From the human T2T-CHM13v2.0 reference genome, Homo sapiens: 64,000 bases of DNA. Below, one piece after another: positions 1,704 through 3,246 of this stretch. The stretch is from assembly GCF_009914755.1 (NCBI RefSeq), contig NC_060934.1, one strand, 5' to 3'. Position 1 is the first letter of the stretch. The number at the start of each line of letters is the position of its first letter. The position numbers and the translations under genes are program-made. Below the pieces are notes generated by a model. That model worked only from the letters and a program-made list of their open reading frames with translations. It did no database searches and was not told where the DNA came from.

Positions 1704-2015
1704 TTCTAACTCCTAAAAAGTAAGTGTTTTTGCATTACTGCAGGATATTTTCAATAAAGTCACTATAAAACTAAAGTCCAGTGAGGTGAACAAAGCCTTA
1801 CATACACCCTGCCCTCAGTCATGGACACCTCCCATTGGGGGTGTCACAAGCAAGCTGGCCCCAGGAAACTTCTAATAGTTTCCAAAAGGGCTCCAAGGAA
1901 GTCACTACAACTAACATGGTTTCAAAATCCTGAAGGACTCTCAAGTCCAAGAGTCAGAAAAGAGATATTATCATTATTGATTCCAAGTTTACTTGATGCC
2001 AAGTAATGTGGGTCT

Positions 2016-2175
2016 CATGTAATCCTCACAACATACCTGAAAAATGGGTATCATCATCCCAGTGGGAAGATGAGCAAGCCCAGGCACAGACAGCGTAAGT
2101 GCACAGTTCAGGATCACACAGCTGGCAGATGAAGGAGACAGGGTTTGTACCCACCTCTTGATTCCAAAACCCTAA
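2016..2175 (-). mobile_element. MIR fragment
   Basis: taatcctcacaac...atcatcatccc...gatgagcaagcccaggcacaga...gatcacacagct core pattern. Confidence 0.7.
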
Positions 2176-2421
2176 CCCTAAAGACTACACTAAAATGTTC
2201 CTCCTAAGCCATGAGAGCCGTTTTTACAAAGCATCACAATAGTCCACCTTTTGAAAAAAAAAAATCCATAAATTTCCAAGGCCAAAGAATAAAAACTCAG
2301 CCTCCAAATAATAACATATGAAGCTCCTCACAATCTGGCCCCAATTTTCTTTTCAAGTTCACCTCCAGACATCATCTCTCCTGGCCCCAGCACACCCTGG
2401 GCTCTAATTCCATGGACATGT

Positions 2422-2563
2422 CTGGCTAATTTTTTTTGTATTTTTAGTAGAGACAGGGTTTCACTGTGTTAGCTAGGATGGTCTCGATCTCCTGACCTCG
2501 TGATCCGCCCACCTCGGCCTCCCAAAGTGCTGGGATTACAGGCGTGAGCCACCGCGCCTGGCC
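2422..2563 (-). mobile_element. AluY-like left arm only (right arm missing)
   Basis: Reverse complement of Alu 5' end with AluY-type GAGATCGAGACCATCCT; ends abruptly just past the A-rich linker. Confidence 0.9.
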
Positions 2564-2671
2564 GACCAGATTGTTTTTAAAACAGAAAAGGAAAAATGGA
2601 GCAACCAATCTCTTTCAGATGCTTTGGAAAAATTGATCACCCTCAGATTACCCTTAATATTTTAAGAAATC

Positions 2672-3246
2672 GGCTGGGCACAGTGGCTCACGCCTGTAAT
2701 CACAGCACTTTGGGAGGCCGAGGCGGGCGGATCACAAGGTCAGGAGATCGAGACCATCCTGGCTAACGGATCTCCTTCATCTGCCAGCTGTGTGATCCTG
2801 AACTGTGCACTTACTCTGTCTGTGCCTGGGCTTGCTCATCTTCCCACTGGGATGATGATACCCATTTTTCAGGTATGTTGTGAGGATTACATGAGACCCA
2901 CATTACTTGGCATCAAGTAAACTTGAAATCAATAATGATAATATCTCTTTTCTGACTCTTGGACTTGAGAGTCCTTCAGGATTTTGAAACCATGTTAGTT
3001 GTAGTGACTTCCTTGGAGCCCTTTTGGAAACTATGTGAAACCCAGTCTCTACTGAAAATACAAACAAATTAGCTGGGCGTGGTGGCGGGCGCCTGTAGTC
3101 CCAGCTACTTGGGAGGCTGAGGCAGGAGAATGGGGTGAACCTGGGAGGCGGAGCTTGCAGTGAGCCAAGATCGTGCCACTGCACTCCAGCCTGGGCGACA
3201 GAGTGAGACTCTGTCTCATATATAAAAAAAAATATATATATATATA
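2672..3246 (+). mobile_element. AluY interrupted by a 264-bp non-Alu insert (2771-3034)
   Basis: Alu runs to ...CCTGGCTAAC (2767) and resumes at GTGAAACCC (3035); A/TA tail. Confidence 0.93.
2771..3034 (-). repeat. Inverted duplicate of 1875-2138
   Basis: Direct comparison shows 264 nt with 2 mismatches; the shared peptide IVSKRAPRK...SLLDAK appears in track ORFs 1821+ and 2903-. Confidence 0.97.

What the first reader, a model, noticed from the sequence alone, without database searches (positions are those of the whole stretch)
1875..3034. 264-bp inverted templated insertion inside an AluY creates a long fold-back in DYDC1 intron 1
SEEN: 2771-3034 is the reverse complement of 1875-2138 (2 mismatches). 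It replaces ~3 nt of the AluY between GGCTAAC and GTGAAACCC, with a 3-nt junction GGA, no TSD and no poly-A. Between the two copies lies a head-to-head inverted Alu pair 108 bp apart (2422-2563 minus, lacking its right arm; 2672-2767 plus). INFERENCE: this is a recent template-switch or double-strand-break repair event (FoSTeS/MMBIR or polymerase-theta type), possibly provoked by the inverted Alus. The pre-mRNA can form a near-perfect 264-bp stem ending 163 nt upstream of the acceptor of the ATG-containing DYDC1 exon, a likely ADAR substrate or splicing modifier. ~1% divergence suggests a hominid-age or polymorphic event.
Basis: partly seen in the sequence, partly recalled or inferred. Interest (0 to 1): 0.7.

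Follow-up and report, generated by a model that had tools for sequence, protein, structure and literature searches.

The report
Flipped repair copy inside DYDC1 intron
A 264-base piece of a human intron sits a second time, flipped, inside a nearby Alu repeat; it is likely the scar of a DNA-repair copying slip of a well-described kind, and although the RNA is predicted to fold into a long hairpin, it is probably harmless.

Summary
2771-3034 is the reverse complement of 1875-2138 (262/264). It replaces 3 nt of an AluY, with a GGA filler, no target-site duplication and no poly-A. The donor has no other copy in the genome search. Published GRCh38 gene ends give the same offset (869,102) on both sides, so GRCh38 very likely carries it too; an assembly artefact is unlikely. 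It meets every tested criterion of Pace et al.'s repair-mediated duplications and the size range of the common inverted-duplication class (median 284 bp). It is not in Pace's Table S1. New detail: the donor edge matches the Alu beside the break at 11/12 nt (10 of 13,640 control edges), pointing to a microhomology-guided switch. 'Provoked by inverted Alus' is unproven: 13 of 47 Alus here have a close inverted neighbour. The stem is predicted, but pairing at the real DYDC1 acceptor is unchanged (0.55 vs 0.55), and a 132-bp Alu:Alu duplex forms without the insert. One untested lead: the stem would cover an 85-nt exon-like stretch in the donor. Ape status and editing could not be tested. Verdict: new member of a known kind, likely neutral.

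The parts
1875..2138 (+). Donor (source) segment. Its right half is an old dispersed repeat (MIR-like, name recalled) that runs on past 2138, which marks this as the original.
   Evidence: 66% over 130 nt to 51374-51492, E 9e-7, extending to 2145; only donor and copy found genome-wide for 1800-2000
2771..3034 (-). Inverted copy (acceptor) interrupting the AluY
   Evidence: 262/264
2768..2770 (+). 3-nt filler GGA replacing 3 nt of the Alu; template not identifiable
   Evidence: best nearby match 8 nt, reached by 48% of 2000 random anchors
2672..2767 (+). Host AluY, left part (Alu positions 1-96)
3035..3232 (+). Host AluY, right part (from Alu position 100) and tail; no recognisable TSD
2418..2563 (-). 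Truncated AluY head-to-head with the host, 108 bp apart; right arm, tail and TSD missing; pairs with the host over 98 nt at 92%
2135..2146 (-). 12-mer straddling the donor edge; 11/12 identical to host Alu 3038-3049 and 12/12 to the minus Alu 2450-2461 (candidate microhomology)
3038..3049 (+). Host Alu 12-mer next to the break that matches the donor edge at 11/12
2037..2121 (-). Unannotated 85-nt exon-like stretch in DYDC1 sense inside the donor; both sites would be paired by the copy
1557..1712 (-). DYDC1 ATG-containing exon; acceptor region lies outside the stem, predicted pairing unchanged
   Evidence: hub table

Best explanation
It is a single-copy 264-bp piece of DYDC1 intron 1 present a second time, inverted, inside an AluY 632 bp away, and it likely arose in one germline repair or replication event and is likely neutral. 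Shown: donor, copy, polarity, 3-nt loss, 3-nt filler, no TSD or poly-A, switch-point order 3-2-1-4. Inferred: a broken or stalled + strand end at Alu position about 96-114 annealed to the near-matching 12-mer at 2135-2146 on an upstream template. It copied 264 nt backwards to 1875, let go, and rejoined the Alu at 3035 by end joining, with trimming and filler at the left junction. Inferred age: probably after the orangutan split, now common or fixed in humans. Predicted result: a roughly 265-bp intronic RNA stem, probably edited at a low level like neighbouring Alu duplexes, with no predicted change at the annotated splice sites.
For: Anatomy. Polarity: the copy interrupts an Alu while the donor's old repeat runs on past its edge. 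Single donor. Class match to Pace 2009: 824 proximal duplications up to 619 bp, donor <5 kb; 39 of 39 inspected proximal cases without poly-A; filler, deletion and microhomology typical; human-specific mean divergence 0.89% against 0.76% here. Sudmant 2015: 54% of 229 validated inversions are inverted duplications, nearly all <1 kb within 5 kb. Schloissnig 2025: 277 events, median 284 bp. Microhomology: 11/12 reached by 10 of 13,640 non-Alu control edges. Same length in GRCh38. Acceptor pairing 0.55 with vs 0.55 without the insert.
Against: The simple microhomology model predicts that about 14 Alu bases before TCTC would remain at the left junction; they are replaced by GGA, so an extra trimming step must be assumed. 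The right junction shows no microhomology. The 12-mer test was chosen after seeing the match. No outgroup empty site could be seen. Neutrality is inferred from folding and class statistics, not measured. Conversion between the arms could make the event look younger than it is.
Confidence: 0.78

Rival explanations
1. The inverted Alu pair caused and steered the event (a variant of the best explanation). A single-stranded + strand tail folded back on the minus Alu, slipped by the 12-nt identity from 2450-2461 to 2135-2146, and copied its own strand; the same instability deleted the minus Alu's right arm.
For: 98 bp at 92% with a 104-nt loop. The 12/12 match was reached by 5 of 13,640 control edges. 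Order 3-2-1-4 allows an intra-strand switch (Walker 2021). Both Alus of the pair are damaged, and neither has a recognisable TSD, against 7 of 10 comparator Alus with a match of 11 nt or more.
Against: 13 of 47 Alus in the window have an opposite-strand neighbour within 250 bp, 8 of 47 within 110 bp. A 108-bp spacer is at the edge of the roughly 100-bp hairpin range, and pairs at 51-205 bp are only mildly depleted (I:D 0.898). The 12-mer is common Alu sequence, so the match to the minus Alu is not independent of the match to the host. The 14 nt this route should leave are absent.
Confidence: 0.3
2. The copy works as a splicing modifier. Transcribed before the donor in DYDC1 direction, it would pair over and silence an 85-nt exon-like stretch (2121-2037) that would otherwise add upstream in-frame ATGs to the DYDC1 message.
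For: Its donor 9-mer is the same as the annotated DYDC1 donor at 3462, and its acceptor has 16 of 20 pyrimidines. It is one of 5 candidates in the window at the strictest cut, 2 of which coincide with an annotated exon or donor. Predicted pairing rises from 0.39 to 1.0 (5' site) and 0.57 to 0.95 (3' site) with the insert. Joined to exon 1712 it reads in frame with the main ATG.
Against: The score is crude and the cut was set after seeing the candidate. At cuts that recover 5 of 8 annotated internal exons, 29% of 264-nt windows hold such a stretch. None of the 11 RefSeq transcripts uses it (hub table), which fits 'never used' as well as 'masked'. No paper was found.
Confidence: 0.06
3. An RNA-templated (L1-mediated) retro-duplication of intronic RNA.
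For: The region is transcribed on both strands (hub table).
Against: No poly-A or poly-T tail, no TSD and no endonuclease-like site at the break. In Pace 2009, 0 of 39 proximal cases had tails, against 17 of 29 distant ones.
Confidence: 0.03
4. Assembly artefact of CHM13.
For: Near-perfect local inverted repeats can arise from fold-back chimeric reads (own knowledge).
Against: Two internal mismatches, a filler and a 3-nt loss. Three published GRCh38 gene ends on both sides give one offset, 869,102, and DYDC2 spans 23,329 bp in both assemblies.
Confidence: 0.01

Closest known systems
Repair-mediated duplications (RDs), Pace et al. 2009, PMC2671141
   Same: A transposon interrupted by a 50-619 bp copy of a single donor within 5 kb, with filler and small deletion and no poly-A. 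A close analogue in Table S1 is a 239-bp human-specific copy in an AluSc in a TBC1D12 intron, donor 748 bp away, 0.42% divergence.
   Different: This locus is not in Table S1 (no gene-name hit; the hg18 coordinate prefixes used were converted from recalled offsets). It was probably filtered out as a nested repeat (inference). The text passages read do not analyse orientation or RNA fold-back.
Inverted duplications of the 1000 Genomes SV maps (Sudmant 2015, PMC4617611; Schloissnig 2025, PMC12350158)
   Same: Less than 1 kb copied in inverted orientation within 5 kb; median 284 bp; short microhomology; replicative origin proposed.
   Different: Those segregate in humans. This one appears in both reference assemblies and its frequency is unknown.
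Four-point template switch, type 3-2-1-4 (Walker et al. 2021, PMC7954356)
   Same: Same switch-point order, producing a single inverted repeat; can be intra-strand.
   Different: Those events are local, tens to hundreds of nt. Here the jump is 630 nt and the copied tract 264 nt.
Long near-perfect intronic inverted duplicated sequences (Barak et al. 2020, PMC7006430)
   Same: Intronic, over 96% identity, predicted dsRNA.
   Different: Below their 300-bp cut. 197 longer ones exist in human RefSeq transcripts, of which only 20 were expressed above FPKM 0.01 and 7 were heavily edited.

Membership tests
Repair-mediated duplication (Pace 2009) | Transposon interrupted by 50 bp or more, halves joining within 30 consensus positions | tested here: met
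   267 bp between Alu positions 96 and 100
Repair-mediated duplication (Pace 2009) | Insert found at only one other place in the genome | tested here: met
   Search with 1800-2000 gave donor and copy only; the old-repeat half was not searched, and the tool skips common words
Repair-mediated duplication (Pace 2009) | Donor more than 50 bp and less than 5 kb away; size up to about 619 bp | tested here: met
   632 bp apart, 264 bp long
Repair-mediated duplication (Pace 2009) | No poly-A/T tail; filler, deletion or microhomology at the junctions | tested here: met
   3-nt filler, 3-nt deletion, no tail; offset 11/12 match
Repair-mediated duplication (Pace 2009) | Empty orthologous site in an outgroup | not testable with these tools
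   No primate genomes held (no relatives); ape SV tables not held or without a hit
1000 Genomes inverted duplication | Under 1 kb, inverted, within 5 kb of the source | tested here: met
1000 Genomes inverted duplication | Polymorphic among humans | tested here: inconclusive
   Same length in GRCh38 and CHM13; no hit in held supplements, which lack the full call sets
L1-mediated retro-duplication | Poly-A tail and target-site duplication | tested here: not met
Long near-perfect IDS (Barak 2020) | Longer than 300 bp and over 96% identity | tested here: not met
   264 bp, 99.2%; not in their supplements
ADAR substrate | Long duplex in the pre-mRNA | tested here: met
   Predicted 266-bp (DYDC1 sense) and 265-bp (DYDC2 sense) helix, pairing probability about 1; prediction only
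ADAR substrate | Observed A-to-I sites | not testable with these tools
   No RNA-seq or editing catalogue held; 0 papers with DYDC1 and RNA editing
Inverted-Alu hairpin instability (Cook 2011) | Inverted pair spaced about 100 bp or less | tested here: inconclusive
   108 bp, at the edge of the range

The most novel reading that the evidence does not exclude
A human- or African-ape-specific repair accident wrote its own antisense guard: the flipped copy base-pairs over an 85-nt repeat-derived exon in the DYDC1 5' intron and switches off an isoform (10-residue in-frame N-terminal extension) that primates without the copy still make. Repair-mediated inverted duplications would then be a general cis route for silencing exons.
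Probability: 0.05. Interest if true: 0.6.

Novelty: new member of a known kind. Interest (0 to 1): 0.17.

Why it matters
As it stands it is one more of about 800 or more catalogued local repair duplications. It is useful as a clean example, because the Alu records the lost bases and an offset 12-nt microhomology hints at how the template was chosen. It would matter more if the copy proved to mask the exon-like stretch in its donor: that would show a DNA-repair scar changing splicing through a self-made RNA duplex in a lineage-specific way, testable with one minigene.

Tried and rejected
Filler template: the best match is 8 nt (to 2486 + and 2749 -), reached by 48% of 2000 random anchors, so it was not used. 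Minus Alu as a copy of the host Alu: 93% identity, no closer than other local Alus, rejected. Inversion of the 108-bp spacer that swapped the TSDs: the minus Alu's flank 10-mer does not recur after the host tail, not supported. New poly-A signal in the insert: none on either strand. Known RNA family: 14 Rfam matches in 1500-5000, all below gathering score, none in donor or copy apart from an SRP match ending at 2783. Catalogue look-ups without a hit: Sudmant 2015 (1 file held); Schloissnig 2025 (3 files, table cut, no full call set); He 2019 (12 of 14 files, one cut); Pace 2009 Table S1; Barak 2020 (3 files); Hellen & Kern 2015 (main file not searched). The ape SV paper of 2018, the 2019 major-allele SV paper and the 2015 breakpoint paper were not held, so unseen tables may list this locus. 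Paper searches: DYDC1+inversion 3 papers, DYDC1+structural variant 3, DYDC1+RNA editing 0, DYDC2+insertion+chr10 2, DYDC1+testis+splicing+isoform. By listing, none concerns this element; two were opened at passages. PMC13019027 has 0 mentions of DYDC1 or DYDC2. Loci L007 and L008 were not used.

Full report
Observation. The window holds a 264-bp inverted repeat, 1875-2138 against 2771-3034, 262/264 identical without gaps and 632 nt apart. The mismatches are 1983/2926 and 2094/2815. The right copy sits between positions 96 and 100 of an Alu. All 15 Alu junctions picked up by the motif scan carry 3 nt there, so 3 nt were lost and GGA plus 264 nt gained. There is no poly-A and no TSD. It is the only self-match of at least 60 bp at 95% or more in the window. 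The subfamily name AluY rests on recalled diagnostic bases and on closeness to ten Y-like local copies.

Polarity and uniqueness. The copy breaks an Alu. The donor's right half matches another dispersed old repeat at 51374-51492 (66% over 130 nt, E 9e-7), and that match runs 7 nt past the donor edge. I recognise the repeat as MIR-like from memory; no repeat library was available. A search of the whole assembly with 1800-2000 returned only donor and copy (the tool skips common words).

Not an assembly artefact. A table in PMC5473753 (passages seen) gives GRCh38 DYDC2 as 80,344,745-80,368,073 and the DYDC1 5' end as 80,356,755. Against the hub's CHM13 coordinates these three anchors, one left and two right of the insert, give one offset, 869,102, and DYDC2 spans 23,329 bp in both assemblies. 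A fourth anchor, the DYDC1 3' end, far to the left, differs by 92 bp and lies outside the interval. GRCh38 therefore very likely carries the insert at about 80,353,666-80,353,932. This is a length argument comparing Ensembl with RefSeq ends, not an alignment.

Age. Two mismatches in 264 bp is 0.76% (95% range 0.09-2.7%). P(2 or fewer) is 0.58 at 0.89%, 0.33 at 1.3% and 0.015 at 3% (3% as the human-orangutan level is recalled). The host Alu differs from the local majority at 3 of 231 non-CpG and 13 of 48 CpG sites and must be older. The event is probably younger than the orangutan split; conversion between the arms could bias this young.

Mechanism. The switch-point order is 3-2-1-4, a common type that yields one inverted repeat and can be intra-strand (Walker 2021, abstract and passages). 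The donor's minus strand across its 2138 edge matches the Alu just right of the break (3038-3049) at 11 of 12 nt, and the minus Alu (2450-2461) at 12 of 12. 10 and 5 of 13,640 non-Alu control edges did as well. I read this as the landing site of the switch. Against the simple version: about 14 Alu bases that should precede TCTC are replaced by GGA, the filler has no template above chance, the right junction has no microhomology, and the test was post hoc. The neighbouring inverted Alu could have helped by fold-back (98 bp, 92%). Both Alus are damaged and lack TSDs, whereas 7 of 10 comparators show a match of 11 nt or more. But 13 of 47 Alus in the window have an opposite-strand neighbour within 250 bp, and 8 of 47 within 110 bp (48 rows with the two host halves counted once). 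Cook 2011 (passages) limits the hairpin route to about 100 bp.

RNA. Folding 1680-3100 predicts a 266-bp helix in DYDC1 sense and 265 bp in DYDC2 sense, with pairing probability about 1. With the insert left out, the Alus form a 132-138 bp helix anyway. Pairing over the DYDC1 acceptor, pyrimidine tract and branch region is 0.55 with and 0.55 without the insert; at the DYDC2 isoform donor it is 0.71 and 0.71 (repeated). The fold left out the third Alu at 3308-3611. Barak 2020 (parts 1-2 of 5) reports that such duplexes are purged from mRNA far more than from pre-mRNA, and that 197 human ones are longer than 300 bp at over 96%, 20 expressed and 7 heavily edited. An intronic stem of 264 bp is therefore not exceptional. 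Editing here is likely but untested.

One lead. The donor holds an 85-nt exon-like stretch in DYDC1 sense (2121-2037). Its donor 9-mer equals the annotated one at 3462, and its upstream ATGs read in frame with the main ATG. The copy is transcribed first and would pair over both sites (0.39 to 1.0 and 0.57 to 0.95). At the strictest cut 0.9% of 264-nt windows hold such a stretch, but that cut recovers only 1 of 8 annotated internal exons; at the loosest cut (5 of 8) the figure is 29%. No RefSeq transcript uses it. I give it about 5%.

Comparison with what is known. Pace et al. 2009 (parts 1-4 of 8, method passages and 15 chr10 rows of Table S1) define exactly this class: 824 proximal repair-mediated duplications, found as interrupted transposons; 9 of 10 human-specific ones tested appeared fixed. 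Every feature I could test is met; the outgroup empty site could not be tested. The locus is not in their table, probably because the insert contains an annotated repeat (inference). Sudmant 2015 (passages) and Schloissnig 2025 (passages) describe the segregating form as the commonest inversion class, median 284 bp. I found no paper on this element, but several SV catalogues were not held or only partly searchable, so it may be listed somewhere I could not see.

Verdict. Real, young, probably common or fixed in humans, a new member of a known class and likely neutral. Interest 0.17.

Noticed in passing
window 4351-4453: Hairpin with 43-nt arms, 93% complementary, 17-nt loop. Partial matches on both strands at G000:C12:7644669-7644726 suggest an old palindromic DNA-transposon remnant; weak mir-549 match far below gathering score (28 vs 93 bits).
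   Followed up: partly
window 3217-3259: The host AluY tail is a self-complementary A/AT/T run and has no recognisable TSD; possibly a second small fold-back event or microsatellite decay.
   Followed up: partly
window 2418-2563: The minus AluY has lost its right arm, tail and TSD; whether in the same event as the insertion is unknown.
   Followed up: partly
window 2814 (- strand): The copy brings a GTAAGT 5'-splice-like hexamer into DYDC1 sense, one of two on that strand in 1-6000 (the other is the real exon donor at 1556); one of the two arm mismatches lies at its -1 position.
   Followed up: partly
window 751-832 and 4814-4895: 82-nt direct repeat, 80% identical, 4 kb apart; could be an old repeat fragment or an older local duplication.
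   Followed up: no
window 5966-6417: G-rich degenerate tandem repeat just downstream of the DYDC1/DYDC2 first exons.
   Followed up: no
window 24787-25413, 42340-42969, 52681-53118: Three further inverted Alu pairs only 29-34 bp apart; the first two are head-to-head, in the 24-36 bp range that Cook 2011 reports as enriched.
   Followed up: no
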